Positions 6,539 to 45,942 are shown, counted from the whole stretch's first letter. The stretch is 63,627 nt of DNA, filler included, from Licmophora abbreviata (GCA_900291995.1; 10 parts of 10 records of this genome joined end to end with filler, not necessarily neighbours in it); one strand, 5' to 3'. The notes: a model not told the origin generated them from the letters alone. A program made the numbers and translations.

Positions 6539-7001
6539 ATGTCGGGCTACGCATCAGTTCCAAAGACGACTCTGCAGGTAAGAAGAAAAAGAAGCATGAC
6601 TGCTGAGCTTGTATATTCAATATGCGAGAAACTTAAGTAGTGGCTCACGGACGCTCTCTTGCGTCTTGCTTGCTCTTGTTCTACACCTCTCTTTTCCTAA
6701 AACACAGCTCTATCGAGACTGCTTGAGACTCGTCCGTCATGTTGCTCCTGGGCACACCAAGAAGGCCATGGCTCTGAAAATGACTGTACGGGCCCAGTTT
6801 GCGGCCAACCGAGACCTTACGGACGAACACGTGATTGCGGCTAAAAAGGGAGATGCCGTGAGGGCCTTGTCGAATTACTTGTTGCTGGGGAGTGCACAAA
6901 AGGATGGAAAATTGACTACTGCTATGAATAACTATCATGACACTTCAGTGAAAGAGGCCAAGTCTAGACAAACGGGTGGTGATGACAAAGAACTGAAATG
7001 A
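6539..7001 (+). CDS. LYR-motif (Complex1_LYR) mitochondrial protein; intron 6579-6707
   Basis: Exon 1 MSGYASVPKTTLQ spliced to LYRDCLRLVRH...VRAQFAANRDLTD. Confidence 0.8.
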
Positions 7002-8573: not shown

Positions 8574-9412
8574 TCAATCCGCCTTGAGCGCAAAGGAGAT
8601 TTTTTCGACTCCCTCTTTTCGCACCACCATGACTTCCAACTGATCTCCCGTATAGATATCACGCTCCCCCGCCGTCACAAAGGCATCCTTGACAATCTCC
8701 ACCACCTCGGCACTGGGCAAGTCTCTCTTGGCATCCAGTCGATTCTTGTGTCCAATCACGTTGTCCAAGAGAGGAATAATGTAGGCTTGGCCACTGCCGT
8801 TGGCCGAGTACTGTGTCTTTTCGAAACTTCCAATGGCATCGTACGAGTAGACAAAGCCGTTGCCGTCATTGTCAACACCGCCCAAGACATTGAATGCGTA
8901 GTAGGGAAAGAAGCGTTTGTAGTACAAGGTATTTCCAAGCATCTGCGCAATGCTGGGCAAGCTCATGCTCTTGCGATGATTGTGCTGGTAGACCTGACAG
9001 TGTAAGAGAGTAATGAAGTACCAGGGGAAGGTGTAAGATGTCGTGATACACAGCATGTCTCCGTTCCTTTTTCTCTATTCCAGTAGAGTCCTTGTGCGCC
9101 CCTTTCTTATATTCCATGTACTCACTTTCATGTTGATATCCAACACACTCCGCAGCTGATCGACATCCGTCTTGCAGCCACTGCTGGCCAAGACACTGTG
9201 CTGGGTCAGAGCATGGAGCTTCGTCACGTTCCTGCTAAGAATCTCGTAGCCACTGCTCAATCTCGTATCGCTGGCAATGATGCAATAGTCCGTGCCCGCG
9301 ATGGCCACCACGGTACCCCCATTGAACTCGTAGGGCGAAAAGCCTCGTTCGTACGGAGCTTGCGTCACGCCGTGGTCGATGGAATTATTGTCAGCAGCCT
9401 TATTCAAGATGT
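8574..9412 (-). CDS. PSMB1: 20S proteasome subunit beta type-1 (beta6/PRE7); intron 8994-9125; 5' end runs into the gap
   Basis: FSPYEFNGGTVVAIAG, ASDTRLS, LYYKRFFPYY, YSYDAIGS, AGERDIYTGD motifs. Confidence 0.93.
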
Positions 9413-9791
9413 NNNNNNNNNNNNNNNNNNNNNNNNNNNNNNNNNNNNNNNNNNNNTTAATTAATTAANNNNNNNNNNNNNNNNNNNNNNNNNNNNNNNN
9501 NNNNNNNNNNNNTTTTCTTGCAACATCAACTTTCGAACTCGGTCATCGGTGAGAGCGAGGCGACCATAATGTGACGATGATGACGTGTCAAAAATGGCGT
9601 TCACGTACGCTGGACAGACTGTCCGTCATCTCTCTTTTCGTTTGGTCGCGTCACGTCACTCACAAAAGTTCAGTCGATCTAGATTTGACAATGGTCTTTC
9701 TTGTTCCTCTTCTTTCTTTTTCTTGTGCTGACCCTACTGTTGATTTCCATTGATTAGACTTTCATTCGACTTGTACTGCTGCATCAATATC

Positions 9792-12611
9792 ATGACAGCA
9801 ACAGCTTTTACTGCTTCCTCGATGCTTCGTCGCGCCGTCATGCAGCGTGCCACTCGAATGTTTCGGCATCCCCAGGTCAGCGTCGCCGCATCGACCAGAC
9901 GACAGCGGTCGTTTGTTTCAACGTCGATTTCATCCTACAGTGGCCGCGATCTTTCTTTTTCCCTAAAAAGAAAGTCGACGCTGTTTCCAAAGTACTACAG
10001 TGTAGTGATGTCTGCGAATGAACAAGACGAAGAAAAAGGCAGCAACGATAATGTTGGTGCAGTCTGTTACAACGCCGCCTCTGGACCACCCAAGAAGGGC
10101 AGCGGCTTTGATGAATTCTTTCCCAAGAAGACTGAAACGGAAAAGGAGAGTACCGATGCAGATGAAGAAGCGACAAAAGAGTCCGAGATGGATTCAAAGG
10201 GGAAAAGTAGTACTGAGCAGAAGGAGACTCGCAAGGAAGAGAGTGATGACAAAAACAGCGACGACAAGGAAACGACGTCTGTAAGCGACAAAGATCCCTC
10301 TTCTTCTTCTTCTTCTTCTTCTTCGTTTCAATCGAAGAATGGTGGTTCTGACGAAGACAAAAGTCATCAACGCAACAACAGCTCTCCTCCTCCACCACCA
10401 CCACCACCGCCTTCCTACGATCTGGGATATGCCTTCCTAGTTCTGTTGGTGCTTGCATTGACGAATCCACTCGGTCTTGGTAGTAATGACGGTGAGGATA
10501 ACGAATCTGAGGAACGAAATCATTCATCGGCAATGCATCAGCAGGATAATGAGGACATTTCATGGCATGATTTACATGATTTGATTGAAAGTCGACAAAT
10601 TGAAAAATTGGTCGTCTATAATCCATCCGGAGAGAATTGTGCGGTGCGAGTCATTTTGAAACCGGGCAAGATGGGATTGAAGAGTCGTCGCAGTCGCAGT
10701 ATTGCGCATGAACAACGCCATGACAAGGTCCGACCTCATGACCGCGATGCGACGCCGGACGTGGTGGATGGACTGGGTGAGACGTCGAGTCATGCATCCT
10801 TGTCCTCTCGTCTGCAGCGTCCCAGCATAATTTATCGTTTGAACATTGGTTCGGTTGTGACTTTCGAGCACAATTTGGATGAAATTCAGCGTTCCTTGAA
10901 TAGGCCCATGCGGGACTACGTGCCAGTCCAGTACAAGCCGGACAGTACGGTAGCGAGTGAATTGCTGGCGCTGGTACCCAATCTGGTCATGGTGGGGATC
11001 TTTGCTGCCATTGTCATGGGAATGAGAGGGCAGGGGGGTGCGAGTGCTAGTGGAGGGAGTGGTGGAGGTGGGATGGGTGGGATCTTTCAGATTGGAAAGT
11101 CGACGGCCAAAAAGATTAGCAAGGAAGAAATCAGTGTGACATTCAAGGATGTGGCGGGATGTCAAGAAGCCAAGAAGGAAATTATGGAGTTCGTAGATTT
11201 TTTGCAAGACTCGTCTCGATTTACGGAATTGGGGGCGAAAATTCCAAAGGGGGCCTTGTTGTCCGGTCCTCCAGGTACCGGCAAGACTCTCTTGGCCAAG
11301 GCTGTGGCGGGCGAAGCCAATGTGCCGTTCTATTCCATTTCGGGATCGGACTTTATCGAAATGTTCGTTGGAGTAGGGCCGTCGCGAGTGCGTGACTTGT
11401 TCAAGGAAGCGAGACAGAATGCACCCTGTATTGTCTTTATTGATGAAATCGATGCAGTGGGACGGCAGCGTGGACGTGGTGGAGTCGGTGGGAATGATGA
11501 ACGTGAGAATACATTGAATCAACTGTTGGTGGAGATGGACGGATTTTCGCCGTCGACCAATGTGGTGGTATTGGCGGGCACGAACCGTGCAGATATCTTG
11601 GATCAGGCATTAACACGTCCGGGTCGCTTCGATCGACAGATTCAAGTCGATAAGCCTGATTTACAGGGACGCAAGGAGATTTTCTTGGTGCACTTGAAGG
11701 GTATTGAGCTGGAGGAAGAGGCCGAGGCGATTGCTGGACGGCTGGCGGGGCTGACGCCTGGCTTTGCCGGTGCCGACATTGCCAATATCTGCAACGAGGC
11801 GGCGATTGTGGCGGCGCGTCGCAAAGCCGATTCTGTGTCTATGGACGATTTCGAAAAGGCGACAGACCGCATTGTCGGAGGTCTAGAAAGCAACAAGATC
11901 ATGTCCAAGGAGGAGCGAAGTATCGTTGCTCACCACGAGGCTGGCCACGCCGTGGCAGGGTGGTTCTTAGAGCATGCAGACCCCTTGTTAAAGGTGACTA
12001 TCATCCCCCGTAGCAGTGGAGCACTGGGATACGCACAGTACTTGCCCAAGGAAGTTTTCTTGCGGACGCAACAGCAAATTATGGATATTGTGTGTATGGC
12101 GCTTGCTGGTCGTGCCGCCGAAGAGATTTTCTTTAAGCGAGTCACAACGGGCGCGTCCGACGACCTGCGTCGTGTCACTGATATTGTCTATAGCACCATT
12201 CAGCTTTACGGAATGAACGAGCGTTTGGGTCAACTCGCTTTCCCCAAAGATCCAAACGCCATGTTTGACGACCGACCGTACTCGGACGCTACCGCGAAAG
12301 CCATGGATGAGGAGGCAAAACGGATTGTCGATGCGGCCTACCAGCGTACCCTGGATCTGCTGACGGAGAAGAAAGAGGCGGTTGAGCAGGTCGCTGCCAC
12401 ATTGTTGGAAAAGGAAACTATCACGCACGACGACATTGTTGAGGTTCTCGGTGATCGACCATTCCAGCGTGACAGTGCCTACGATGAGTTTGTGAAGAGA
12501 CGTCGAACCATCCTCCATGACAAGACGGATGAAGACAACGGTGAGAAAGAAGAGGGAAAGGAGTCTACAACCGTTGATGAAGCAGGACCCTTGAATCCAG
12601 GGATGGCCTAA
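9792..12611 (+). CDS. AFG3: Mitochondrial m-AAA protease subunit, AFG3-like (FtsH family), intronless paralog
   Basis: Mitochondrial-type presequence, two TM segments, Walker A GPPGTGKT, Walker [17 protein letters not shown] zinc motif, [20 protein letters not shown]3 signature. Confidence 0.93.
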
Positions 12612-12709: not shown

Positions 12710-14438
12710 TCATGCACCGATCGATGGTTGATTACCTTCCGCCTCTTCATCGTCTTCGACAATTGAGCTCTTGGCGAGCGTTAGACACGGTCCACACTTG
12801 AGTCCCTGCTCGTGATCGTCCAGCCTTATGGTGATGAGCGTTGAAAGGATACTGCTGACGGTTCCCGCCAGAAAGCACGCAGCCATCCCGGCCACTGCAT
12901 CCGACCCCGCCAAGGATCCGAAGTTCTCTCCCACGTACGTATAGAGCAGTCCACTCCCTATAGTCCCCATCAGTCGTCCCAGTGCATTACTCATGTAGTA
13001 AAATCCAACACTGACAGCCACCTTATCCGATTTGGCGTATTTGACAACCAAGTAGGAATGAATCGATGAGTTTACGGCAAAGATGACAGCAAACGAAATG
13101 ATCACAGTAATGATCCACGCTAGCATGGCTGATTCATCGTGATCCTCAAAGGACTGTGAGAATGCCAAGACAGCGGCCATGACCGCAGTGGGGATGCAGT
13201 TGATGGCATTCCAAAGGATTTCCGTCAGTTTGTTAGGTGGTCTGGTGGCATAGACGACAGATAATCGTTGTGAGACGACGACAACCACATCCATCGCTAC
13301 ATCTAGTCCCTGCTACTCACGTTTGTCGCAAAGGCCCCGTCACCAGTTGAGGTGTCCAGCTCTGCACTTGTCCATACAAGATAATGTAACCTCCTAGAAA
13401 GGCTCCAACGACCACACGATCCAATCCAAGTCCACCACAACCACCACCCGGGTTGATGTTCGCACATAGATCGAGAGCCTCGTCACATACGGCGTTGGTA
13501 ACGCACTCGTCATTGGCATTGCATGTGTCTACCCCCAGTCCCGCACAGTCCGGGCTGCGCAGAAAGAACGGTAGCGGCACTTCAAACCAAAAGTCTCGCG
13601 AGGCAAACAGAAAGAGTCGTGCGAGCGATAAAATGTTGAGATTGTAATTGTCCATGACAAAAATCTCCCTCCATGAGGCATTCTTCGTCTTGGCCGTTCC
13701 CAGGTTCTTATCCAACCGAAGGATTACCCATGGCATGGCCAAAAGTATGAGTCCCATCATGACTCCCAGTGCCAGTTCATAGCTGACCGTGATCAAGGCA
13801 CTGCCTAGAAAGTATCCGACACCCTTCAACGAGTTTTTCCATCCCGTAATGAGCGATACGAGCTTGAACAACTGCGTGCTGCGTTCCTCGGGTGTCACAA
13901 GTTTCGTCACCGTCTTGCCTCCCAATTTTGTAAGATCCTTTGCGACGCCGGCCAGCAACTGTGCAAACGTAACATAGATTATGCTCTGCGTCTTGTTCCA
14001 GCTGTCCTGCCAGCCAAACAACATGCCATATGCTCCTAGCTGCAGAGATAATCCCAGAATGAGCGTAAACCGGATACCCCACTTGGCCCCCATGACACCG
14101 GCCGCCAGATTCGTCACGACACCGGCCAATTCGTAGAGAGTAAACATGACTGCCACTTCGAATGCACTAAAGGACTTGTTGTAGGCGTGTAAGAGTACAA
14201 TCATACGGATCGCACCATCAGTAATGGTAAAAAGAAGGTATGAAGATGAAATGATGACAAAGGGGCGCAGGGCTTCGCTCGTGGCAGCCTCCATGAAGGA
14301 TTGATGGGCGGGCTGTTCTTCCGACGTTTCGCCCTCTTGCCCGGCGGAGTTGGGACTCTTGCCATCATGGTGTGCTTTGGAGGGTATGTCGTCTTCCATG
14401 AATGAAACATTCTCGCTATTGTCAGCTTCTAATGTCAT
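12710..14438 (-). CDS. arsJ: ArsJ-type organoarsenical (1-arseno-3-phosphoglycerate) efflux MFS transporter; exons 14438-13321 and 13241-12710
   Basis: Motifs matching bacterial ArsJ as recalled: FTITDGAIRM, LYELAGVVTNL, AGVAKDLTKL, LITGWKNSLKGVGYFLG, LSLARLFLFASRDFWF, FAVNSSIHSYL, VGFYYMSNALGRLMGT; 79-nt GT-AG intron 13242-13320. Confidence 0.88.
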
Positions 14439-14966
14439 GGTACTTGGATATCTGAGAAGGGACTTTCTTCCTTGTCTTGTCACGTCAGTCGCCTTTTTCC
14501 CACTTTGAGGATCGAACTGAATCTCGACTGAATCTTGGGTTTGATGTTTCGATTTTTTGTCGTTTCTCTTCCCAGTTAGACTACAACACAGTGCAGTCAC
14601 ACCTGTTCAAAATGAAGCACGAGGAGAGAGGAAAAGTACTGTTGTCGCCAAGGAGCACTTCGCAAGGAATAGCATCGCCTCTGCCAACACAATGCATCCT
14701 CGAAACAAACAAGGTTCGAAACTGCAATCTGGAAACAAAAAAACCGCGTCCTATTTTTGTCCAAATTTTGGATGTCGTTTAAACCAAGATGACTTTAACA
14801 CGTTTTAATATTAGCGCATCTTCCTAGTGCGACATAGAATCTTCGAAACAACGTGGAATGGTGAAACCGAAAAAGATATCGGATTGCGATCCTCTCGCCA
14901 CCTTCACTCTCAACTCTCGTGCGTTGGAGCCTTCACGACAACGACTGACAGCCTCCTATAATCACC
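14439..14966. promoter_or_regulatory. Divergent promoter region shared by arsJ and GAPDH, with tandem YGAATCTH (PSR-like) motifs
   Basis: Head-to-head starts about 530 nt apart; TGAATCTC 14518-14525, TGAATCTT 14529-14536, AGAATCTT 14836-14843. Confidence 0.6.
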
Positions 14967-16022
14967 ATGGTCAAGTGCGCAGTCAATGGTTTCGGCCGCA
15001 TCGGCCGTTTGGTCTTTCGCTATGCATGGGACGATCCGACTCTCGAGATTGTCCATGTGAACGATCTCTGCTCCTGCGAAAGTGCCGCGTACCTCGTCCA
15101 GTACGACTCTGTGCATGGCACCTGGGACAAGACTGTCGAAAAGAAGGAAGACAGCAGTGGTTTCACTGTCGACGGAACTCTCGTCACTTTCAGTTCCGAA
15201 AAGGACTTTACGCAGGTCGACTATGCCGCCATGGGAGTCGAGCTCGTCATGGAGTGCACGGGCAAGTTCTTGAAGGTCGCCACGTTGCAGCCCTATTTTG
15301 ACACGTGCGGTGTCAAGCAAGTCGTCGTCAGCGCTCCCGTCAAGGAAGCTGGCGCCTTGAACGTAGTCTTGGGCTGCAATCATACCAAACTGAGTAACGA
15401 AACGACGCTCGTGACGAACGCCTCCTGTACTACCAACTGTCTGGGGCCTGTTGTCAAGGTGATTCAGGAGAATTTTGGTATCAAGCATGGCTGCATCACC
15501 ACTATTCATGATGTGACTGGTACGCAGACCATTGTGGATATGCCCAATACCAAAAAGAGTGACTTGCGACGTGCCCGCAGCGGCATGGTCAATCTCGTTC
15601 CGACCAGCACCGGCAGTGCGACTGCCATTGTCGAGATTTATCCCGAACTCAAGGGCAAACTAAATGGACTGGCGGTCCGAGTGCCACTGCTCAATGGTAG
15701 TCTGACAGATTGTGTCTTTGAAGTGAACAAGAAAGTAACGAAGGAAGAAGTCAATGCCGCCTTAAAGGCGGCGTCCGAGAGCGGGCCTTTGAAGGGCATT
15801 TTGGGCTATGAAACGAAACCCCTCGTGTCGACCGACTACACCAACGACACGCGCAGTAGCATCATTGATGCTCTTTCCACCCAAGTGATTGACGATACTC
15901 TGATCAAGATCTATGCGTGGTATGACAATGAAGCTGGATACTCCAAGCGCATGGCGGAATTGTGTCACATTGTAGCGGCCATGAACATTACCAAGACGGA
16001 ATCGGAGTTCAAGTATGAATGA
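14967..16022 (+). CDS. gap: ArsJ-associated (Gap3-type) glyceraldehyde-3-phosphate dehydrogenase, cytosolic, intronless
   Basis: [17 protein letters not shown] and WYDNE motifs; the segment [14 protein letters not shown]...DLRRARS...[10 protein letters not shown]...[18 protein letters not shown] resembles ArsJ-associated/Gap3 enzymes rather than eukaryotic GapC; no targeting peptide. Confidence 0.9.
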
Positions 16023-16432: not shown

Positions 16433-18048
16433 ATGGCTGCTATCGCCCGTCCTACCGAAGCAACCTACGTGACTCATGAGCAAGTGACGGTGGATACGGC
16501 TGGTACGGCGAGGATGATTAGCAATCTCAGTTTGAAACGTATTGTTCTTTTTGAGATCTCATCAGACTAACAAAATCTTGTTCTTGCCTTCTCTTCTGAT
16601 TCCGTGTCGTCTGCAGACCACGAAGATCATACTTTTTGGTACGTCTCATCGAAAACTTATTGCTTGGGAGGGCCGACTGTTCTCCTTCTCATCGCTTTCT
16701 TTTCGCTCTCACCATCACCAAACTTCACAGTGGCATTATGTTTCCAGTCAAGTGCAAAGAGCTCGTACCTGTCGATCATATCGTCATTACAAGCGTAGCC
16801 GTTCGTGGAAATCTTGGTCCTTTGACGGTCTGGGTTTCGAACGAGGACGATCCGGCTCATCAGGACAACTCCTTCCGCGTCATGGCGCAGCACTGGACGA
16901 AAATATACGAACGCACGCATCCTCCGTCTCGTCGTCACTACTGCCAGCTTGATTTGAGTCACAGTCCCATTCGTCTCCGTCCAGGACAGGTCAGAGCCAT
17001 TTATGTCCATTCCACACTTCCTGGGGTAAGTTTTTTGGAAGGCTCTTTTGTCAAATGTAGAGGAGAGCTTGTGGATGCACTCACGCTAACAGTGTCCACG
17101 TTCCTTTCTTATCATTTCATTGCATTGCATCAGGACGAAGCGATCGTGTACGACAATCGTCATTCGCGTCGTACGTACGACGACGCTCTGATCAGTCTCT
17201 TACCAGGACGCGCTCACGTCTCGGAACGCCCGTTCGGAACGATGCCCATTTGGGGATGGGGCAATCCGTGGCGCGACGAACGTGAATTCGTCGGCCGCAT
17301 CGAATACGGGGCCGTGTTTCGGTTGTGGAATCCGAATGAATTTCGGATTTTTGGAGATCGCTTCCAGCAGCTCACGCGGACTCTGTTCCTATGTCAGCGA
17401 CGATGGGAATCCAACATGTCGCGACTTCCTGACGATTGTATCTTTTACATTCTCAACATGTGTCGTTGGGATTGGGCGGGAGATACGGCGGCGACGATGA
17501 AGGATATGCATCGGCGTAGGAAGTCGATACAACTTGCGTCGGAAGAAGTGGCGATGGCTGATGCGATTCCATTCGATATGGATGTAGAAGAAGAAGACGG
17601 AGAAGCAGAGGTACAGGCGAGCTCGTGTTGTCAGCGGACGGCGTCGGCACTGAATGAGAGTGACGAGTCGGAATATGAAGAGGCACAGGAGGATGACGGC
17701 GAAGAAGAAGATGAAGATGATCTTTACGAGGACGAGGAGGGAAACGTGTATCGTGTAGTGGAGGCTGCAGAGGATGTTGATATCGAGGAAGACGTTGACG
17801 AGGAGATTGACGAAGATGATGACGACGACGACGACGACGACGAGGATTGGGACGAAGATGACTTTGGGTTTGGTGGCCACCGAAATCACACTTTCTCTTA
17901 CAGAGATGATGACTCGGACGAGGAAGATCGAAGAGTAAGTTCCTACGAACGGGGTAGGCGCGCGTGGATACGTCGCCAGTTCGCTCGCGTTCAAGTTCTG
18001 CAGGTATTGAACGCACGCGCTCGTGACATGGACGATTCGAGCACGTGA
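16433..18048 (+). CDS. Multi-exon hypothetical protein with a long Asp/Glu-rich C-terminal region
   Basis: GT-AG introns at 16503-16616, 16639-16730 and about 17026-17132 give a continuous frame; globular N-terminal part, then LPDDCIFYILNMC segment and acidic tail. Confidence 0.7.
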
Positions 18049-28007: not shown

Positions 28008-30408
28008 CTAGCTGTACTGCTCCTCAGCATCGTCCTTTTGCTTGTTGGCTTCATCTAGGAGATCCTGCTTGCGTTCAGTGCCTTGCTGAACCATGCGATC
28101 GATCTTCTGCGCTTCTTCGTCGTTTCTTTCTTGAATGCGGTTCAGCTCTTCGTCCACGTCGGAATCGACGATTTTGGTTTCCGGCTCGAATTCGTGAAAT
28201 TCGCCATCCCCATACTCCTCGGTTTCTTCCATGTCGGACTTTCCTTCGGCCGCCTCGGCTTCGGACTTTTGGTTCCTCTTGAGAAATGTACGAAAGATCG
28301 GGTTTTCGCTTTGTGCCTCGACTTCCTCGTCATCAAAGGCACCAAGTAGGCGCCCTACCTTCGCCGTGAGCACCTTCTTATCGTCGGCGTTGACGACTTC
28401 AAAGCACCATCCCTGGGTCATGACGAAATCTCCTGTTCGTGGAATTTCTCCAGCGCACATACAGAGGAAGCCACTCAAAGTCGCAAACTCCTTCAAGGCT
28501 TGTTCCGGATCCAAGTTCAGTTGCAGGATCGCGTCGCAGTCTTCCAAGTCGGCATCACCTCGAATCAAGAAAGTTCCGTCCTCCTGCATGGTGATGGAGT
28601 CCTCCGAGAACTCGAAATCGTCCTCGTCGTCCTCGTCATAAATTTCGCCAACCACTTCTTCGACAATATCCTCCAAAGATACCAGCCCCTCGGTGCCACC
28701 ATATTCGTCCACGACAATCGCGATGTGCACACGACGCCGGCGCATCTCCTGAAGCACCGACCAGCCATCAGCGGTGTCAGGAACAAAGTAACATGACTCA
28801 ATGAGACCAGCATCCGAGATTGAGGTCTCCATACGCGACGCGAGTTCTGTCCCCGTAAGAGAGCGCACATATTTCTGCTGTGCGTTGCCTTGATTTCCGA
28901 TTGGAATCCGTTCGGTCGAGTACAGTGCCCCTACCTCTGCCAACGTTGAACTTTCGGCCGTTGCGGCCACATCTTCGCTCTTGTTGCTGCTGCCGCTGCT
29001 TTTCTTCTTCATTACGTCGCCATCTTCCACAATTACACCCTTTACGAAAAAGTCCAGGACACTCTTGGCCAAGCAAATCCCGACAATGTTATCAATCTCC
29101 CCGTCATAGACCGGAATCCGACTGTATCCACTCTCACGGACAATGCCCAGCACACTTGCCACGCTCATATCCTTGGGGACCGCGATGATTTCCACGCGCG
29201 GCTTCATAATTTCTTTGACGCGTTGATCCTGTAAGTTCAATACACCCTGAATCATCTCCTGCTCGCCATGATCAATCGTTCCCGAGTCTCTGGCTCCCGT
29301 CACAATAAGCCTCAATTCTGAGTCTGATACCATGCCCGATCCACCATTCTTTCCTTTGAACCCCAACATCGAAAGCGTCTTTTTCGACAGATATGACAAG
29401 GAAATTCCCAACGGAGCCACGACCCCTGAAAGGATATTGACTGGGGGGACAATCAACCGCGCCACGCGCTCTGCATTACTCACACCTATCGACTTTGGCA
29501 AGAGCTCGACAAAGAACAATGTAATGATGGTTAATGCGATAGCTCCATACCGTTCCCCGCGCGTTCCAAAGACACTGGCCACCAAGTGGGTGAATATGGT
29601 CGTCGCAAAAATCGATGCCGCCGTGGATGTTACAAGAATCGTCGTCAAGACACGGGTAATGTCTTCGTTCAGGATTTTAAAGGTGCCTCTCTTATTACCA
29701 CCCTGCTTTTCTTCTTCTTCGGCAAACTCACGAACCTTCCAGGGATACAAGGTTGTAATCGCAATTTCGGCAGCGTGCAATAGAGCAAGGCAGACAAAGA
29801 GACTGAAAAAGACGGCACCGGCTGTAATCGCCTCGTTTCTAAGAAGAAGGAAGAGTCAAACAGATAAGAAAAGTAAGAAAAACGATAATATACGCGAGAA
29901 GCAGAATTTTAATAGCAGTATTCAACGATCGTACGTACTTTGCCATGGGCGGAATGGGATTGTTGGAGGAGCTCATGCCACCTCCCATGGCCGCAAGAGC
30001 GGCTCTTGGCTTCGAAATGGAAAGCATGCCGATGAGCATCATCGCCGCCGCCTTGATGCGCTGTCTCTTGGAACCTTGATGATGAGGGCCTATTCGCGAT
30101 CTCGATGCCCCCATCCGCTGCCGTAGACGGGAGAAGCTGGCGCGGATGGATGGTCTCGACTCCCGTTCTGGAGGAGTATTCAATGATGCTGTCTCCGACA
30201 CCATCAGGAGCGAGCTAGTAGCAGGCCTTGACGGGGGTGGTTTGGCATGATAAAAATGGAGATTTATCAGTGACGGAGAGTGCATGCGCCCGACCCGTGA
30301 TGAATCAGCGGTTCTTGACAAAGACGGTGGAGGTCGAAAGGCAAGAGTCGTCGGTGAACTCATGTAAACAGCCACGGCTGTCAGTATCAACCTTCTGAAA
30401 TCGCCCAT
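28008..30408 (-). CDS. CNNM/DUF21-CBS-CorC Mg2+/Co2+ transport protein, probably plastid-targeted; intron 29839-29938
   Basis: AAEIAITTL, FVELLPKS, EIMKPRV, SGYSRIPVY, AIVVDEYGGTEGLVSLEDIVEEVVGEIYDE and CorC_HlyC tail; signal peptide (TLA/FRP). Confidence 0.9.
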
Positions 30409-31134: not shown

Positions 31135-32634
31135 CTAGGCAGTGCCCGATGCGGGCAGAGTAGGAGACGGAGAACTCTCGGTTCGCGGTACAAAGGCTGG
31201 TTGAGGGGAAGTCCGATGACCGCCCGTCAGAAAACGGGATGACGCAGCCTCTGCAATCACATCCGGTCCAGCTCGTTCCACCGTTCGGAGCCACTCGTAC
31301 GCCTTTCGTTCCTTATTGTTCTTTTTCGTTCTCTTCTTATGACGTGCCGCCTTGTGAACGTCGTCAAGTTCATCCTTCTCGTCATCTGCCTCGTCACTCC
31401 ACTGTACCTGGGCTTCTGGATAAGCGTCGCCCATGACCACCGGTGGCACTGGATTCGGAAATGTAGAGACGCCTCCCAACTTTAGAACAGCGCTCCCGAC
31501 TGCTTCTTCCTCCGGTAAATACAAACTAGACCCCCGACTACTCAGACTAATATCGTCCTCTTCTTCGTACGCTCCCACTAGCACGTCTTCTTCGTCAGTG
31601 TACGAGGTAGTACTTCCATTCAATTGATTGGCCATGCGAATGGACGGAGTGGAAAACTGACGCTCCTCCATTGGCAACGCCGGCTGGAAAATCTGGTGGA
31701 CACTATCAGCGCCAATCCCCACCACCAAATCATCTCGCGTCGGCTGATAGGGCTGCACTGTGGACGGCAGAAGCACACCGTGTTGTTGCTCATAGGAACG
31801 CTGGGACTGAAACGAGTAAAACTGACGTCGCGACGGAAACTGTACAGACGGAATCGATGCCTGCTGCTGCTCCTCCTCCCCGTGAACGTCGTTCTGTACT
31901 TCCACTTCATTCTCATAATTGTAAGCACCAAAGGTTTGTTCGAGCGACGGGACGCTCTTGCTGCGTTCCGCAGTGGGAAGAGGGGGCAGAGGAGGCCCCC
32001 TTGCAGAGGTCGATGGCCGAGGCTTCAGGTCACGGCGTGAGGGAAGAGTCAAGTGTTCCCCTTGTAACATGGCCGTGTCATCAGGAGAAACAACCATGCC
32101 TTGAGCATTTTCGACAAATTCGGCGCTTGTATTGTCGGTGACGGGTGTCAGCTCGGCCGCTGCAGGTAGCCGAAAGGCAGAGGTGCCCGTGTTGGTGCGA
32201 GGGGTAGGCCGCCGCTGTCGGACCGCTGGAGAATCCAAGAACTGCGTTCGAGGTGGACTCTTTCGAATTCCGGATGTACCTTCCCTCGAGACTTTCGGAG
32301 ACGTGTCTACAAGACTTGGGCTGGAATGGTTCCGCATGATCGCTCCGCCCCTTGGTGCCTCGGGCGGCGGCATCGGATGGGCCGGCGTCATGAGCGCGTT
32401 GCCAGGCATGCCCTTGCCGCTCATCACTGTCGTGGCTTGCGTGTTCGGAGGTGGAGGTGTCATGATCCGCCAAGGAGATTGATCTCTTCTTTGTCTTGGA
32501 GGAGATACAGACAGCTCCATCATGCGCTCGTTCATACCCCCAAGTCCCGCTTGACGTCGGAGTGCCGACATTTCCCGTTTCTCGTTTCGCTGCGACTGAC
32601 GGTCGTTCCCCCTGCTATCCGACGTCTCTGTCAT
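31135..32634 (-). CDS. Hypothetical low-complexity (Pro/Ser-rich) protein
   Basis: 499-aa ATG-initiated ORF; C-terminal basic stretch and AYEWLRTV...IAEAASSRFL motif. Confidence 0.65.
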   Translation of the reverse strand: MTETSDSRGNDRQSQRNEKREMSALRRQAGLGGMNERMMELSVSPPRQRRDQSPWRIMTPPPPNTQATTVMSGKGMPGNALMTPAHPMPPPEAPRGGAIMRNHSSPSLVDTSPKVSREGTSGIRKSPPRTQFLDSPAVRQRRPTPRTNTGTSAFRLPAAAELTPVTDNTSAEFVENAQGMVVSPDDTAMLQGEHLTLPSRRDLKPRPSTSARGPPLPPLPTAERSKSVPSLEQTFGAYNYENEVEVQNDVHGEEEQQQASIPSVQFPSRRQFYSFQSQRSYEQQHGVLLPSTVQPYQPTRDDLVVGIGADSVHQIFQPALPMEERQFSTPSIRMANQLNGSTTSYTDEEDVLVGAYEEEDDISLSSRGSSLYLPEEEAVGSAVLKLGGVSTFPNPVPPVVMGDAYPEAQVQWSDEADDEKDELDDVHKAARHKKRTKKNNKERKAYEWLRTVERAGPDVIAEAASSRFLTGGHRTSPQPAFVPRTESSPSPTLPASGTA

Positions 32635-33763
32635 GGCCTTCTATGTGTTCCCCTCTTTCACAGGACTCGGAATCACTTCTGAATCAGAGGAAAGGAAAAA
32701 CTGCACTGTCACGCCGAATATATGGTGGCTGATGGCCTCTTCCTTTGAAATTGAGATGTCATGACTCTCCTTCGCAGTCTAAAACGTGCACCTACGTAGG
32801 ATCAACGTGTCCACTAGTACGAAACCCAGGACCACCACCTCCTTGGCCAAAAAAGTTCCGCGAAGCTATATTTTTCGAACGGACAAGTTTCGAATTATTT
32901 AGTGGTGGTTCGATAAGTATCTATGGTACGTCTCCGTTGGGGGTCTTGTATGTCCATAAGAAATTGTGGCGGGAAAATTTGAGTATAAATGTGGTGAAGA
33001 AATCGATAGATTTATGGTATTCAGCTATGAGGTGTGAAGAATTACTTGAAAAAATTATGTCGGTTGGTCCTGATAGACATCAGTTGCATGTCTTTGATAT
33101 TTTTCCAATGACGTGGCAGCTTGTTTCCAAATGTCGTATGTGACGATCTGACCTCATTCTTGCAGTAAGGCCACGTAGCGATAGTACCACGAGATGTGTG
33201 GGTGACGTATGTCTCCGGATCGTCTTGTCGGTGCAACTTCAATGATCCAACGCAACTGCAACTTGGATCGAACCCGGAGAAATTCTTGAAGATGGGAACT
33301 CGAAGAACTTCCGGCGAGAAGTTGTATGACTCCTGATCGGTCGTGTCAAAGTGGTCGTATTTTGAGTGAGGTTTTGCAAACCTTGGAACGATGGATTTTG
33401 GCGCAGTTTCGGATCAAGTCGCGGAGTCCCGTGTGTTCTCAACGGTTCGTTCCACGATATGCCCAATCCCGTCTTTCGGAACGCCGCGACCATGGTGCTG
33501 ATTGGATCTTACGATGGGCAACACCGCCATCACCCTCGTCTTGATTAGTTCTAAGGGAGCCTGTACTTTGAAGATAGAGCACTATTTGAGACCAAGGTTG
33601 TACTTTTCGCTACCATCCTCAAACATCAAGCAACGTCTTGGTAGAGACCGAGAGTGTAACACTAGAGAACATTTCGTGTAGTTATCATGATTTTCATTAG
33701 TTGGCGTTAATGGTCGCATCATGATTTCTCTTTCTATTCTATCATTCCACAATATTATGAATT

Positions 33764-38284: not shown

Positions 38285-41200
38285 CTATGATCCGCCGTTG
38301 CCCTCCAAAAGACTTTCCGCCATGTTGATGTTGCCAATTGTAATTGCCACGGCATGCTCTTCGTCGGATAAGCCTGCCTGTCGATACGAATCCAGTGCCT
38401 GTGTCCAGTGATCTAGAGCTTCTTCGTATTGTCGGAGCTTGCCGTAGAGCGTACCGATATTGTGCAATGTTTGGGCGACTTCCACTGAAGATGCTCCAAT
38501 CTTCTCTTTTCGAATGGTCAAGGATGCTGTGTAGCACTCCATGGCCTTGTCAAGGTCGTCTAGCTCGCTAAAGATTACACCCATACCAAACAATGTCGTT
38601 CCGATGGCCAAATCGTGCTTCTCTAACTTCAGTGTGCGAATGCGCAAAGCTTCCTTGAGAGTGTGTAAGGCCTTCATGGGATTAGGTTGCTTCATATACA
38701 GGGTGGCAATGTTGTCTAGACTGCTCGCAACAGACAAGTGATCCTCGCCCGATAGCCGACGGCGCAGTCTAAACGCTTCCTTATGGTACTTCATGGACTC
38801 CTTGTATTCGCCTCTCGAGTCTGATTAAACAGAGACGATTTTTAACAAGCATAACTTTGGTTAGCCATCAGCGGTGTGCAGGTGAGTACATTTCTTCTCG
38901 TTCAGCTTACCGTAGGTGAGACCAATGTGAAACAGAGTATTGGACACGCTCAGGTTCTCGTCTCCGAGGAGCACTCTTTTTAGAGCAAGGGACGAGACAA
39001 ACCGTTTCAATGCTGCACCGTAATTCTGAAGCGCGTACTCGGCCGTCCCGATGGAATGAAGCAAGTCAGCGACCGTCTCGTCGTCGCCGACCGATTCCCG
39101 CCAGGCCTTGAGAAATCCACTCCAGCATCTCAGAGCTTCGTGGTGCTCTCCATTTGTCATATGAACTTCACCAATATATCGGTTGACCTCAAGACAGTCG
39201 AGGTGAGAGTCTTCCATATGACTCTGGCGAATCAGACGGGCCTGTTCGAAATACATTGTTGCCTCGTCAGGACTCTTAATTTCAACGCAAACTCTTCCAA
39301 GCGCTAGAGCAGTAGTCGCAACCTGGAGGTGGTCCTCTCCGAGAATCTTTGTCTCTATTTCCATACTTTCTCGAAGCAGCTCTTCGGCTTTCGCAAAGTC
39401 TTCTCGCTTGAAGGACGCAATGCCAAGGGCATGGCTGGCTTCTGCAACAGGAAGCGAGTCTGGCCCTGTTCGTAACCGTATGGCAAGACATCGTTCGAAG
39501 TGTTGTGTGGCCAAGTTCAGGTCACCGTGGTGTTGATGACAGGAACCAAGACGATAGTAAGCATCCGCTTCTGACGCAGCATGATCTTCCGTGTCGTTAG
39601 TGAAAATATCCAACGCCTCCTTGAAAGATTCGATTGCGGCATGGCTGTGCCCATCAGAGCTCTGTACGTCACCGAGATTCAAAAGGCTCTCTCCAATCAA
39701 AGGGTGTTTACTGTGCAAAAGGGAACGCCGTATTCTTAATGCCTCCGCGAAACATTTGCCAGCAACGCCGATTTGCTTCAGCTTCATTTGTAGCCTTCCG
39801 GCATCTGAGATTATCTTCGCAATATCCAAGTCGTTTCTTCCGTTCGCCTTTTTCCGAATCCGAGTAGCTATTTTCGTGTTTGAATTGAAATCTGTGAGAC
39901 GATCGTCGTACAGGTCCATAGTGCAATATGCCGAGTCCGTGGAGGCTCCACTCACCTGATTGAAATGAAGCGAGTGCGTCGTGATCTAGGCTCAGCCCTC
40001 GCTGAAGTATTCCGACCCTGTAGTGCAGAGTTGCCAAAGCTATCTCGTTCTCCGACAACTTGTTGTGAGCCTTCAGCGCTTTCTCCAGATAGGCCAGTGC
40101 CTTGGAGTATGCTTGTTTCTTTTCGTGAATTGTACCCAATGCTTCACATACGATAGAAATATTGGCATGCTGGTCTTTCCTGGACTTGTATATCGCGAGA
40201 GCTTGGTCGAGGGATCGGACGGCTTCGTCGCCTTCTCCGATTTGTATGTACAACGCGCCAAGCTGCTGGAGCGTATCTGCCACGGATGGGTGGTTCTTCC
40301 CTAGTCTTTGTCGCTTGATTCGAAGTGCGGCACTCAAACTTTTACGCGCGTCGTCAATCTCATGCGTTTGCTTATATATCTTGCCGATACTGGTTCATGA
40401 AACGAGGTGAGGCATGCGAGGTGGGGTGAGAACAAGAGCCCAGGTGCCTGAGAAAGCTACCCCTGCGGCAGGCAGAGCACTGATTCTCACCAATGTAATG
40501 AATATGCAACGTCCAAATTGTCCTCTCCTAGACATGCCTTTCGGATCGTGAGTGCCTCCTGGAAGTTCTTGACGGCTGAGGCACTCTCGTTCTGCTCACT
40601 CAAGACGTTTCCTATGTTGTGGAGAGTCTGCGCCGTTGATGCGTGTTTGTTCCCTAAGACACTACGTTTAATACGCAGAGATTCGTCGTAGTGGACGCGG
40701 GCATCACTCAGGCGCCCACACTTCGCGGCACAGTTACCCATGTTGTGCAATGTCTCGGCGCAGTCTATGTGATTCTCTCCGTGGACAGATTTTCGCAGAG
40801 ACAGCGCCTCCTGGAAGGCGGACATAGCATCCTCGTAGCTTCTGCGCTTTCCGTGAGCTATTCCCATCGCGTTTAATACTTTTGCTGCTTTCGCAGGGTC
40901 ATTTGTCGTCCTTCGAATCTCGAGGGACTTCTCGAAAAAGTCAATGGCTCGATCGTAGTTGTTTGCATCATCGTAAAGGTGTCCCAGTGATAACAGAATA
41001 TCGGCGATTTCATCTTGCAAGGGGGCATTGTGCTCGTCGCGCCCTAGCAACTGCTTAAGAATTGCCAGAACGTCCTCGTGTGCTTCTAGAAGTGCACGAG
41101 CAGATTTCATATTGGCATTCTTTGACTTCGATATCTTCTTCTGCAAGTCAAGTGCCATTCGGAAGATGGCTGCTGCCATCTCAACATCGCCGACGGAGCG

Positions 41201-43166
41201 ATGAATGCTTCCGACGCAAGCCAATACTTCGCAAACATCCTCATGTTCATCGCCGAGCAGCTCTCTCCGAATTTTTAGGCTCCTGTTGTACAGCTCGAGG
41301 CTCCTCTCCAAGTCATGCTCGTCTTCAAGAATCACGGCAATGTTCTTAACGACCTCGGCAACTTCCAGTGACTTCTTGCCGAAGAGCTGCTCCTTCGCTT
41401 TCAGCGCTGTCTCAAAGTACTTTAGCGCCTTCTCTGAATCACCTTCATCTCGATACACCTTGCCGATCCAGCAGAGTGTGTCAGTAGTGTGCTCATCGTA
41501 CCGCTCGCTCGCGACAATCCCCTTGCGTATCTTCAGAGAAGTCTTAAAGCGATTCATTGCTACGTCCAGTTCGGACCGTTCGCAGTGAATGACGCCCATA
41601 GCGTGAAGACACTTTGCGACCTTTTCGTGTTCGTTCCCAAGGTGTGTTTGGAACATGTCGTGGGCCTCTTCGTAGCAGCTCATGGCCGCGCTGAGATTGC
41701 CCTGACTGACGTTGCTGGCGCCCATACACAACAGTGTGTTCGCGACAGCCTCGCCGCCATAGTCGCCTGCGTTCCGGTGAAGTTTGAGTGACTTGACGTA
41801 GAGCTGCATTTCGAATTCGTAGTCTCCCCAGTCTCCAACAGCCATACCGAGGCAGTGCAAAGCTGAAGCAATCTCCAGCTGCTGACCGCTAGAGCCCCTG
41901 GAATGTCCAGTCGTCTGGCCTAGACGGTACAAAGTGGTAGCGACCTGCTGGGCGGCATCGAATGCAAGGCTGATCCCAATCGACGTGATGGGCTCCATAC
42001 AAGAGTCGTCGTAGTCAATGCCCTTTCTGAGTGTAAGTCGTTCCTTGCGAGCTTCTGACTGCACTCTTGCGATAAAACGTTGGCAGTCCAGGACGTGCCG
42101 TTGGGTTCCACTGACAACACCCACAATATCCAATCGGCTCTGAATGAGCTCTGGGTCCTTCAGCAGATCACGAACTTTGTCAGAGCCGTCAGGTCCGCCT
42201 AGCACAATCGTCGGCAACGCGTACCGTCCATACCAAAGCTGCATATCCTCCGACAAGTCTTTTGCCAGCGATTGAATCCACCCCGCGCTCTTTTCTTCCA
42301 TGACTGGCAGCGATATGCCTATGCGAAGTAAAGACGAGCTCTGGTGAATACGCACCCATGTCAAATGGGGCATGTCCCCATCATCCTCGCGTCGCCTGTA
42401 GACTTCCACCACCTTGATCTCCACCAAACTCTGGTAGAGGTTTGTGCAAGTTTCCACAATCGGCTCGCGTCGATGGGTGTTATCTTCTGTCAAGGCGGCC
42501 TTCCACAACAGCTCAACGACTTCGTACGGTAACCACGGCGGATTCACAGACACCTCCCCATCCAACGAAGCACCGGATGATCGCCTATCGTCATTCATGG
42601 GAAGTCCCATGCCATCTAGAGAAAGATCCGCACACAGGAGTGAAAGTTTACAAAGCGCCGCCCAGCACGGTTGAAATGCGGGGGACGCAGTCTGAAGTGT
42701 CAGACAGATATCCTTCCATCCTTTTTCAGTGTCCTCCTCATCTTCCCCTAAATCTTCCACAAGCAGTTTTCGCGAGGATCCACGCAAGACATGACGCGCC
42801 CTGGCGCGTTCCTTCATTTGTGCAATGCGTCGATTCACGGGTGGTGATGGTGTATCCTCATGATCACCACCATCGATCGCCGCGTCACCCTCCAGTGACA
42901 TCAAGTCGTCAGAGGACAGAATACGGGATGCCCTGTTGTGAATGGTGGGTGTCGATGGTTGCTTTTGGTCCACTGGACTCTCTCTCTGCTTTATCTTGTC
43001 GGGTGAGATAGGTGATGACGCTGGCGTGCTGACGGAGAACTCATTGCTTTTATTTTCGGAGAGTGCCATGGAGATTTTGTTCTCCAATTCATCCAACATA
43101 GTCGACGATGGAGAGGGGTTATCAATGGATATTTCAAAGGATGGTGATGCAGTGACTGGTTCTTCA
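38285..43166 (-). CDS. Large TPR-repeat protein (kinesin-light-chain/nephrocystin-3-like TPRs), at least 4 exons; 5' part crosses the gap
   Basis: Many 42-aa-type TPR units (e.g. EALSLRKSVHGENHIDCAETLHNMG); GT-AG introns at about 40390-40490, 39869-39955 and 38821-38910 give a continuous frame. Confidence 0.85.

Positions 43167-45910: not shown

Positions 45911-45942
<32 letters not shown>

What the first reader, a model, noticed from the sequence alone, without database searches (positions are those of the whole stretch)
12710..16022. Bacterial-type gapdh-arsJ arsenate detoxification module as a head-to-head gene pair in a diatom-like nuclear genome
Seen: an ArsJ-like MFS gene (minus strand, one spliceosomal intron) and a Gap3/ArsJ-associated-type GAPDH (plus strand, IHD...DLRRAR...TGSATAI...SLTDCVFEV) start about 530 nt apart. 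They lie on one ungapped contig among ordinary intron-containing eukaryotic genes. Established: in bacterial ars operons (e.g. Pseudomonas aeruginosa) GAPDH makes 1-arseno-3-phosphoglycerate from arsenate, and ArsJ exports it, giving arsenate resistance. Inference: both genes were acquired together by horizontal transfer and domesticated (intron gain, operon converted to a divergent pair), forming a eukaryotic two-gene arsenate-efflux cluster. The intron argues against bacterial contamination.
Basis: partly seen in the sequence, partly recalled or inferred. Interest (0 to 1): 0.93.

Follow-up and report, generated by a model that had tools for sequence, protein, structure and literature searches.

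The report
Diatom arsenate-export gene pair (ArsJ–GAPDH)
A diatom chromosome carries, back to back, a special GAPDH enzyme and an ArsJ-like membrane exporter that in bacteria and green algae protect against arsenate; this is the diatom version of an algal gene cluster published in 2020, so it is real but only moderately new.

Summary
An intronless GAPDH (14958-16022, +) and an ArsJ-like MFS gene with one 79-nt GT..AG intron (14438-12710, -) start 519 nt apart on a clearly eukaryotic contig. The GAPDH passes NCBIfam's ArsJ-associated GAPDH model (479.3 bits, cut-off 450). The transporter hits only ArsJ, but below the cut-off of 400.

76 of the 80 nearest bacterial GAPDH loci have arsJ directly downstream. 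In a careful tree the GAPDH sits in the ArsJ-type clade (100/100). There it forms one eukaryotic group (96/92) with Chlamydomonas Cre07.g354200. That gene is the GAPDH3 of the green-algal ArsJ-GAPDH3-PGK arsenate neighbourhood of Foflonker and Blaby-Haas 2020, whose arsJ mutant is arsenate-sensitive. Eukaryotic ArsJ-likes also form one group.

So this is not a diatom-specific bacterial transfer. It is the diatom member of an old, shared algal module. The head-to-head layout recurs in two environmental diatom contigs, and Mayamaea has consecutive locus tags, but four other contigs lack it. No PGK partner was found in the window. My searches found no paper describing the diatom pair. Verdict: new member of a known kind, moderate interest.

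The parts
14958..16022 (+). GAPDH of the ArsJ-associated type (the green-algal 'GAPDH3' type). 354 aa, no intron, no N-terminal extension.
   Evidence: Single ORF. NF033735 479.3 bits against a cut-off of 450; next best PRK08955 434.4 and TIGR01534 383.1. Pfam Gp_dh_N and Gp_dh_C. ArsJ-type residue at 11 of 13 signature columns. Trees.
13321..14438 (-). ArsJ-like MFS transporter, exon 1. Holds the ATG at 14438, a 57-aa hydrophilic N-terminus and predicted TM1-TM8.
   Evidence: NF033734 ArsJ 251.3 bits, model positions 2-266, the only NCBIfam hit. Pfam MFS_1. 65-81% identity to diatom proteins.
13242..13320 (-). Spliceosomal intron, 79 nt, GT..AG, phase 2.
   Evidence: Sequence. In-frame stop if unspliced. 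Junction matches transcript-derived P0127 and six other diatom proteins. Same position and phase in L129.
12710..13241 (-). ArsJ-like MFS transporter, exon 2, with the stop at 12712-12710. Holds the last TM helices and a C-terminal tail.
   Evidence: NF033734 94.5 bits, model positions 274-372. Pfam MFS_1 C-terminal part.
14439..14957 (.). 519-nt divergent intergenic region, presumed to be a shared bidirectional promoter (inference).
   Evidence: Coordinates. Equivalent spacers are 388 nt in L091 and 490 nt in L129. No conserved motif beyond A/T-rich 7-8-mers.
13431..13556 (-). Diatom-specific 42-aa loop insert with six cysteines (SPDC...GGGCGG) between predicted TM7 and TM8. Probably faces outside; this is inferred from standard MFS topology.
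   Evidence: Present in 7 of 7 diatom sequences, absent in 2 of 2 green-algal and 3 of 3 bacterial ArsJ in alignment A1. Coordinates.
12785..12796 (-). CGPC motif in the C-terminal tail. It is part of a GL.CG.C motif shared by eukaryotic ArsJ-likes.
   Evidence: Alignment A1 shows it in six further diatoms, Mesostigma and Ulva, and not in the bacterial rows. Window coordinates.

Best explanation
This is the diatom copy of the eukaryotic-algal ArsJ-type arsenate detoxification module. It has two nuclear genes transcribed divergently from a roughly 0.5-kb spacer.

Proposed mechanism:
1. The cytosolic GAPDH (no presequence) takes arsenate in place of phosphate when it oxidises glyceraldehyde-3-phosphate. 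The product is the unstable 1-arseno-3-phosphoglycerate.
2. The ArsJ-like MFS permease exports this compound before it hydrolyses. The net effect is that arsenate, which entered through phosphate transporters, is pumped out.

What is shown here: gene structures, family assignment, eukaryotic residence, recurrence of the linkage, and orthology to the Chlamydomonas GAPDH3 that neighbours ARSJ.

What is shown elsewhere: the biochemistry in Pseudomonas aeruginosa (Chen et al. 2016, seen only as cited), and the arsenate sensitivity of Chlamydomonas arsJ and pgk3 mutants.

What is inferred: that the diatom proteins do the same, that the exporter sits in the plasma membrane, and that the spacer is a co-regulating promoter.

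History: both genes derive from a bacterial gapdh-arsJ operon. The capture predates the diatom radiation and is shared with green algae. It was not a direct bacterium-to-diatom event.
For: GAPDH family:
- The GAPDH passes NF033735 (479.3 bits, cut-off 450), as do four diatom orthologues (478-487) and Chlamydomonas Cre07.g354200 (458.7).
- The 12 ordinary type I representatives used as outgroup score 344-420 on that model, all below the cut-off.
- The window has the ArsJ-type residue at 11 of 13 columns that separate 28 arsJ-linked bacterial GAPDHs from 12 ordinary ones.

Transporter family:
- ArsJ (NF033734) is the only NCBIfam hit for both exons, covering model positions 2-372 of 392.

Linkage:
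- The nearest bacterial GAPDHs are 53-64% identical, and 76 of 80 have arsJ immediately downstream on the same strand. Two of the four misses have under 350 bp of downstream flank.
- Head-to-head ArsJ-GAPDH is also found in L091 and L129. These lie in a different diatom subclade from the window.
- Mayamaea carries consecutive locus tags MPSEU_000337700 and MPSEU_000337800.

Trees:
- Careful GAPDH tree, 41 rows: ArsJ-type clade 100/100, eukaryotes 96/92, diatoms 100/99.
- ArsJ quick tree: 22 eukaryote-like against 30 bacterial rows on one branch, SH-aLRT 100.

Function and eukaryotic residence:
- P0164, 61% identical to the window GAPDH, is Cre07.g354200. It lies between ARSJ Cre07.g354150 and PGK3 Cre07.g354250, whose mutants are arsenate-sensitive.
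- The intron is shared with L129, and other diatoms have introns in the GAPDH gene (split HSPs). Both point to long eukaryotic residence.
Against: - No functional data exist for any diatom.
- The transporter fails NCBIfam's equivalog cut-off. The two window exons score 251.3 and 94.5 bits. Three full-length diatom orthologues score 338-344, and two green-algal ones 381-398, against 400. It is only 30-47% identical to bacterial ArsJ by tblastn and carries eukaryote-specific inserts.
- The linkage is not universal. 4 of the 6 eukaryote-like contigs with enough flank (L088, L090, L097, L102) have no ArsJ within 2-8 kb. Epithemia, Fistulifera and a Bacillariaceae MAG appear to have the two genes on different contigs.
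- The GAPDH is very conserved (77-89%) and common in transcriptomes. It is detected in a Phaeodactylum proteome without arsenic. It may therefore also, or mainly, serve ordinary glycolysis.
- No PGK-like partner is present, unlike most green algae.
- No RNA evidence could be obtained for this locus.
Confidence: 0.75

Rival explanations
1. The GAPDH is simply a third cytosolic glycolytic isoenzyme of diatoms. The neighbouring MFS carries some other phospho-organic or unrelated substrate, and the proximity is an evolutionary leftover without a joint arsenate function.
For: The GAPDH is highly conserved, catalytically intact and widely transcribed. It also passes the general type I model TIGR01534 (383.1 bits, cut-off 367.2). 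Kroth et al. 2008 list a 'third cytosolic GAPDH (23598)' in Phaeodactylum without any arsenic context; I could not verify that it is this orthologue. The linkage is lost in several diatoms. The MFS is below the ArsJ cut-off.
Against: The same two families are linked in bacteria (76 of 80), green algae and at least two diatom subclades, in three different orientations. That is hard to explain without selection for joint function. The GAPDH carries the ArsJ-type signature residues. The Chlamydomonas arsJ mutant is arsenate-sensitive.
Confidence: 0.15
2. One reading: a bacterial gapdh-arsJ operon was transferred directly into the diatom lineage, independently of other algae, and was then domesticated.
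For: The closest prokaryotic relatives are gapdh-arsJ operons of marine Alpha- and Gammaproteobacteria and a cyanobacterium. The trees are unrooted within the ArsJ-type clade. The bacterial ArsJ sample was chosen by GAPDH similarity, so a closer unsampled donor cannot be excluded.
Against: Diatom GAPDH groups with Chlamydomonas GAPDH3 and other eukaryote-like rows (96/92; 94% of 200 bootstrap trees). Over exon 1, diatom ArsJ is 57-60% identical to Mesostigma and Ulva but 39-41% to bacteria, and all eukaryote-like rows form one group. PMC9812998 reports arsJ monophyly of red and green algae with other eukaryotic lineages.
Confidence: 0.08
3. Bacterial contamination or a mis-assembled chimeric contig.
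For: Both proteins have bacterial-type family names.
Against: There is a spliceosomal intron conserved with another diatom contig. The pair is flanked on both sides by eukaryotic genes on one contig with even GC. Orthologues at 77-89% identity occur in many diatom genomes and transcriptomes, against only 53-64% and 30-47% identity to bacteria.
Confidence: 0.01

Closest known systems
Green-algal 'ArsJ-type' arsenic-detoxification neighbourhood (ArsJ, GAPDH3, PGK3 or PGK4A). Foflonker and Blaby-Haas 2020, Mol Biol Evol, PMC7826186; passages read.
   Same: It has the same two protein families next to each other in a nuclear genome. The window GAPDH is 61% identical to, and in one supported group with, Chlamydomonas Cre07.g354200. 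The ArsJ-likes of diatoms and green algae form one group. A bacterial origin as a unit was already proposed there.
   Different: The lineage here is diatoms; the words diatom, stramenopile and Phaeodactylum occur 0 times in that paper's main text. No PGK-like third gene was found in the window. The layout is head-to-head. The diatom exporter has a six-cysteine loop insert that the green-algal proteins lack.
Bacterial gapdh-arsJ arsenate resistance pair of ars operons (Pseudomonas aeruginosa DK2; Chen, Yoshinaga, Garbinski and Rosen 2016). Seen only as cited; the paper itself was not read.
   Same: The GAPDH passes the same NCBIfam model. ArsJ is the only family hit for the MFS. The two genes are adjacent. 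The presumed chemistry is the same: 1-arseno-3-phosphoglycerate is made and then exported.
   Different: In bacteria the genes are co-directional, with arsJ 3-150 nt downstream in most loci, and polycistronic. Here they are divergent, monocistronic and intron-bearing. The exporter has long hydrophilic termini and inserts, and it scores below the ArsJ cut-off.
arsJ of Cyanidiales red algae (Cho et al. 2023, PMC9812998; one passage read).
   Same: It is a eukaryotic arsJ reported to be monophyletic with Viridiplantae 'and eukaryotic lineages'.
   Different: There arsJ is said to stand alone, without a GAPDH neighbour. Supplementary Fig. 14 was not seen, so I do not know whether diatoms are in it.
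Pteris vittata PvGAPC1-PvOCT4-PvGSTF1 arsenate tolerance (Cai et al. 2019). Seen only as described.
   Same: It has the same logic: a GAPDH arsenylates and a transporter moves the product.
   Different: It is convergent. It uses a plant GapC and an OCT4-family carrier, not ArsJ-type proteins, and is not a member of this family.

Membership tests
ArsJ-associated GAPDH (NCBIfam NF033735) | Whole-protein score at or above the curated cut-off of 450 bits, and this model as the best-scoring one. | tested here: met
   479.3 bits, top hit. Diatom orthologues score 478-487.
ArsJ-associated GAPDH (NCBIfam NF033735) | Intact phosphorylating-GAPDH catalytic apparatus: the Cys of SCTTNC, the His of the TTIHD segment, the Rossmann GxGxxG, and the anion-site Arg and Thr. 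| tested here: met
   The motifs are present at aa 10, 156, 181, 202 and 218. Which residues are catalytic is recalled knowledge of GAPDH.
ArsJ-associated GAPDH (NCBIfam NF033735) | The gene lies next to an arsJ gene. | tested here: met
   The ArsJ-like gene starts 519 nt away on the opposite strand.
ArsJ-associated GAPDH (NCBIfam NF033735) | Phylogenetic placement with arsJ-linked GAPDHs, apart from ordinary type I GAPDH. | tested here: met
   The clade of 33 rows is separated from 8 ordinary type I rows at 100/100. The quick tree with 77 rows gives 100. No named eukaryotic GapC sequence was in the tree. The GapA/GapC-like model PRK15425 scores only 280.3 bits.
ArsJ-associated GAPDH (NCBIfam NF033735) | The enzyme forms 1-arseno-3-phosphoglycerate from arsenate. 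| not testable with these tools
   This needs an enzyme assay.
ArsJ organoarsenical efflux permease (NCBIfam NF033734) | Whole-protein score at or above the curated cut-off of 400 bits. | tested here: not met
   Exon 1 scores 251.3 and exon 2 scores 94.5 bits, scanned separately. The spliced protein was not scanned. Full-length diatom orthologues score 338.3-343.6, and Mesostigma 398.0 and Ulva 380.8. ArsJ is nevertheless the only NCBIfam family hit.
ArsJ organoarsenical efflux permease (NCBIfam NF033734) | MFS fold, collinear with ArsJ over nearly the full length. | tested here: met
   Pfam MFS_1 on both exons. ArsJ model positions 2-266 and 274-372 of 392 are covered. 63 invariant columns are listed within exon 1 across diatoms, green algae and bacteria.
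ArsJ organoarsenical efflux permease (NCBIfam NF033734) | Genomic partnership with an ArsJ-type GAPDH. | tested here: met
ArsJ organoarsenical efflux permease (NCBIfam NF033734) | Transport of 1-arseno-3-phosphoglycerate, conferring As(V) resistance. | not testable with these tools
   This needs transport and resistance assays. Only the green-algal homologue has a mutant phenotype.
Green-algal ArsJ-type neighbourhood (Foflonker and Blaby-Haas 2020) | ArsJ-like and GAPDH3 genes proximal in a nuclear genome. | tested here: met
Green-algal ArsJ-type neighbourhood (Foflonker and Blaby-Haas 2020) | The GAPDH belongs to the GAPDH3 subfamily. | tested here: met
   It groups with Cre07.g354200 at 96/92.
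Green-algal ArsJ-type neighbourhood (Foflonker and Blaby-Haas 2020) | A non-canonical PGK (PGK3 or PGK4A) neighbour, present in most but not all green algae. | tested here: not met
   No PF00162 hit in 27 of the 38 ORFs of at least 200 aa over the whole window. None in 91 of 123 further ORFs of at least 85 aa in 1-34000. The 32 left out lie inside the long ORFs at 9744-12611, 12710-16022, 28008-29855 and 31135-32640. A PGK elsewhere in the genome could not be sought because no genome is held.

The most novel reading that the evidence does not exclude
The ArsJ-GAPDH pair may be an operon-derived two-gene cluster that has stayed physically linked, or has been passed on as a linked unit, across eukaryotic supergroups (green algae and diatoms, possibly haptophytes). 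Its orientation was reshuffled along the way: co-directional in bacteria, convergent in the green-alga-like contig L120, divergent in diatoms.

In diatoms the exporter additionally gained a six-cysteine outward-facing loop. Together with the other eukaryotic copies it also has a cytosolic CGxC tail. These would make it a redox- or As(III)-regulated exporter, different from the bacterial one.

If so, diatoms, the dominant phytoplankton of phosphate-poor seas, would dispose of arsenate without reducing it. That would be an unmeasured flux in the marine arsenic cycle.
Probability: 0.3. Interest if true: 0.6.

Novelty: new member of a known kind. Interest (0 to 1): 0.4.

Why it matters
Arsenate enters phytoplankton through phosphate transporters and becomes most toxic where phosphate is scarce. 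Diatoms carry out about a fifth of global carbon fixation (abstract of PMC2173943, listed).

A conserved, non-reductive arsenate export route in diatoms would add a pathway to models of marine arsenic cycling and of phosphate-stress physiology. It would also give a clean two-gene target for knockouts in model diatoms.

In evolutionary terms it extends a rare case: a bacterial operon that survives as a nuclear gene pair, now seen in green algae and also in a second, distantly related algal lineage. The different gene orientation argues for selection on proximity itself.

It also corrects an annotation. Genome records name these diatom proteins only 'GAPDH', 'predicted protein', 'Transporter' or 'major facilitator'.

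Tried and rejected
- RNA support for the intron and for expression: no RNA holder was listed. The three coded runs are Logan contigs whose RNA or DNA kind is only guessed. Only X1 laid, as 7 short pieces (33-181 nt laid), none across the intron or the spacer. No conclusion was drawn.
- Whole-genome search: no genome is held for this window. Paralogues, a distant PGK partner and copy number could therefore not be checked.
- Wider synteny: the window's FtsH and six other neighbouring ORFs have no tblastn match in 10 eukaryote-like contigs. Only the pair itself is conserved.
- Shared promoter motif: the three divergent spacers (window, L091, L129) share no 9-mer. They share only two A/T-rich 8-mers, against a shuffle mean of 0.35 and a maximum of 6. 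This was rejected as evidence.
- PGK partner: not found.
- Literature on the diatom pair. 'ArsJ' + 'diatom' gave 2 irrelevant papers. 'arsenate' + 'diatom' + 'glyceraldehyde-3-phosphate dehydrogenase' + 'major facilitator' gave 0. 'arsenate' + 'diatom' + 'GAPDH' + 'efflux' gave 4 irrelevant papers, listings only.
- Identifiers of the Phaeodactylum orthologue (B7GC94, XP_002184760, EEC43819) gave 2 papers. B7GC94 appears only as a row in a proteomics table.
- 'GapC4' is called mitochondrial in PMC6477932, and 32747 is the mitochondrial GAPDH in Kroth 2008. The window protein has no presequence, so it is more likely the 'third cytosolic GAPDH (23598)'. I could not link that number to the accession; the hits for '23598' were seen as a listing only.
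- Supplements of PMC7826186 and PMC9812998 were not opened. They may already show diatom sequences.
- Solved structures: there is no close structure. The best is 1gd1, at 318.6 bits.
- ESM Atlas: the nearest cluster is eukaryotic, with Haptophyta the commonest phylum, followed by cyanobacterial MFS and ArsJ clusters. These are leads only.
- Earlier notes of this scan: none by place, none for the six-word query, and 6 for 'ArsJ'.
- Contamination and chimera were considered and rejected (see the rival explanations).
Full report
**What is there**

On the + strand, 14958-16022 is one open frame of 354 codons that begins [14 protein letters not shown]. It has both Pfam GAPDH domains. Its best NCBIfam model is NF033735, 'ArsJ-associated glyceraldehyde-3-phosphate dehydrogenase', at 479.3 bits against a curated cut-off of 450. 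The general type I model scores 383.1, and the E. coli GapA-like model PRK15425 only 280.3.

On the - strand two frames (13317-14606 and 12710-13312) both hit only NF033734, the ArsJ organoarsenical efflux permease. They cover model positions 2-266 and 274-372. They are joined by a 79-nt GT..AG phase-2 intron (13320-13242). Read without splicing, the frame stops at once. The spliced product has 549 aa.

Its junction GPLRQT|PPNK is collinear with a transcript-derived Conticribra protein (P0127) and six other full-length diatom proteins. The environmental diatom contig L129 has an intron at the identical position and phase. L091 has none there.

The two start codons are divergent, with 519 nt between them.

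**Context**

The contig is eukaryotic. It carries cyclin, Kelch, ankyrin, sterol-sensing, PUB, HEAT and CNNM domains and two FtsH paralogues (27 of the 38 ORFs of at least 200 aa were scanned). A proteasome subunit gene is interrupted by an intron. GC is even along the contig. Contamination is excluded.

**Relatives of the GAPDH**

It is 77-89% identical to proteins of many centric and pennate diatoms: Cylindrotheca, Fragilariopsis, Phaeodactylum XP_002184760, Fistulifera, Epithemia, Cyclotella, Helicotheca, Proboscia, Eucampia and Mayamaea. Four that I scanned also pass NF033735.

In a scan of one genome per prokaryotic species, the best 80 loci are 53-64% identical. 76 of these 80 have an ArsJ homologue directly downstream on the same strand. 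Of the four without, two have under 350 bp of downstream sequence, and two (L046, L071) have 6 kb and none.

Thirteen alignment columns separate 28 arsJ-linked bacterial GAPDHs from 12 ordinary type I representatives. The signature comes from my own sample, so it is supportive rather than independent.

**Trees**

A careful IQ-TREE of 41 GAPDH rows separates the ArsJ-type clade (33 rows) from 8 ordinary type I representatives at 100/100. These eight score below the NF033735 cut-off. Within the clade the 16 eukaryote-like rows form one group (96/92; 94% of 200 bootstrap trees), and the 12 diatom rows form another (100/99). A 77-row quick tree agrees.

One row of the eukaryotic group, P0164, is 61% identical to the window protein. 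It is Chlamydomonas reinhardtii Cre07.g354200.

The ArsJ quick tree puts all 22 eukaryote-like rows on one side of a branch with SH-aLRT 100, against 30 bacterial rows. The eukaryote-like rows are the window, nine diatom-like proteins, Mesostigma, Ulva and ten unnamed long proteins. Over exon 1 the window is 57-60% identical to Mesostigma and Ulva but 39-41% to bacterial ArsJ.

Caveats:
- Unnamed rows were labelled eukaryotic or bacterial by presumption.
- The bacterial ArsJ sample was selected through GAPDH similarity.
- The trees are not rooted inside the clade.
- The ArsJ tree is a quick one with long branches.

**What is already known**

Foflonker and Blaby-Haas (2020, PMC7826186; passages read) described a conserved green-algal neighbourhood of ArsJ, a bacterial-like 'GAPDH3' and a non-canonical PGK. 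[quoted passage not shown] They also showed that Chlamydomonas mutants in ARSJ (Cre07.g354150) and PGK3 (Cre07.g354250) are arsenate-sensitive.

The window's GAPDH is thus the diatom counterpart of the gene lying between those two. Cho et al. (2023, PMC9812998; one passage read) state that arsJ of Cyanidiales is monophyletic with Viridiplantae and 'eukaryotic lineages'.

The words diatom, stramenopile and Phaeodactylum do not occur in the main text of the 2020 paper. Three searches aimed at the diatom pair found nothing relevant. The supplements of both papers were not seen.

Another (e1-2873942) reports Pho-box control of gap-arsJ in marine bacteria.

**How conserved is the linkage in diatoms**

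Of 21 eukaryote-like GAPDH loci from metagenomes, six have at least 1.5 kb upstream.
- Two of the six (L091, L129) carry ArsJ head-to-head, with spacers of 388 and 490 nt.
- Four (L088, L090, L097, L102) have no ArsJ in 2-8 kb on either side.
- L091 and L129 sit in a different diatom subclade from the window.
- L102 sits within the window's subclade. So the arrangement is old and has been lost repeatedly.

Mayamaea has consecutive locus tags for the two genes. Epithemia, Fistulifera and a Bacillariaceae MAG appear to have them on different contigs. This is judged from contig lengths only.

The GC-rich contig L120, whose GAPDH groups with Chlamydomonas (100/98), has ArsJ convergent downstream.

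No PGK-like gene is in the window, and no other neighbour is conserved.

**Mechanism**

The most likely mechanism (confidence 0.75) has two steps. The cytosolic GAPDH arsenylates glyceraldehyde-3-phosphate. The ArsJ-like permease then exports 1-arseno-3-phosphoglycerate, so the cell loses arsenate without reducing it.

Shown here:
- the gene structures and the family assignments;
- orthology to the green-algal module;
- recurrent linkage of the two genes.

Inferred:
- the activity and substrate of the diatom proteins;
- the location of the exporter;
- co-regulation from the spacer.

The main weakness is the exporter. It fails the ArsJ equivalog cut-off, as all eukaryotic copies I scanned do (338-398 bits against 400), and it has eukaryote-specific additions.

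The main rival (0.15) is that the GAPDH is chiefly a housekeeping cytosolic isoenzyme and that the linkage is vestigial.

**Seen in passing**

- All 7 diatom ArsJ-likes aligned have a roughly 40-residue loop with six cysteines between predicted TM7 and TM8. The 2 green-algal and 3 bacterial sequences lack it.
- The eukaryotic copies share a GL.CG.C motif in the C-terminal tail.

**Verdict**

The functional guess is reasonable. However, the kind of system, its eukaryotic occurrence, its bacterial ancestry and a mutant phenotype are already published for green algae. The diatom pair, its divergent layout, its shared intron and the exporter's cysteine-rich loop appear to be undescribed. This is a new member of a known kind, with interest 0.4.

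Noticed in passing
window 13431-13556 (-): A 42-aa loop with six cysteines (SPDC...GGGCGG) lies between predicted TM7 and TM8 of the ArsJ-like protein. It is present in 7 of 7 diatom sequences aligned and absent from 2 green-algal and 3 bacterial ArsJ. It is probably extracellular and disulfide-bonded; that is inference.
   Followed up: partly
window 12785-12796 (-): A CGPC sequence within a GL.CG.C tail motif is shared by diatom, Mesostigma and Ulva ArsJ-likes and is lacking in bacterial ArsJ. A vicinal-thiol motif in an arsenic exporter could bind As(III) or be a lipidation or redox site.
   Followed up: partly
L129 1937-2027 (-) and window 13242-13320 (-): The intron position and phase in the ArsJ-like gene are the same in two diatom subclades (91 nt and 79 nt). 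The intron is absent in L091, so it is an old intron with later loss.
   Followed up: yes
L120 (1759 nt, GC 0.645): On this green-alga-like contig the GAPDH groups with Chlamydomonas GAPDH3. An ArsJ C-terminal fragment lies convergent (tail-to-tail) 246 nt downstream. This is a third orientation of the same pair.
   Followed up: partly
L046 and L071 (genome contigs): Two bacterial ArsJ-type GAPDH genes have 6 kb of flank on each side and no arsJ. The type can therefore occur unlinked in bacteria too.
   Followed up: no
P0162 (2089 aa, ENA contig of 15747 nt) and P0163 (509 aa): The top two hits of the representative search are proteins with four and two GAPDH-like stretches respectively. They may be multi-GAPDH fusions or gene-call artefacts.
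   Followed up: no
window 9744-12611 (+) and 44519-47002 (+): Two FtsH-type AAA/M41 protease paralogues lie 32 kb apart on the same strand, each as one long ORF. The first has a long low-complexity N-terminal extension.
   Followed up: no
window 8577-9464 (-): A proteasome subunit gene is split into two ORFs in the same frame by an intron that contains an in-frame stop. A small LYR-family ORF lies at 6600-6998 (+).
   Followed up: no
window 38861-43210 (-): Three adjacent ORFs are rich in TPR_12/TPR_10 repeats (NPHP3-like). The largest has 907 aa, and a PUB-domain ORF lies next to them at 43219-43926.
   Followed up: no
window 16600-18048 (+): The gene directly downstream of the GAPDH is a 482-codon ORF with an acidic C-terminal half and no Pfam hit.
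   Followed up: no
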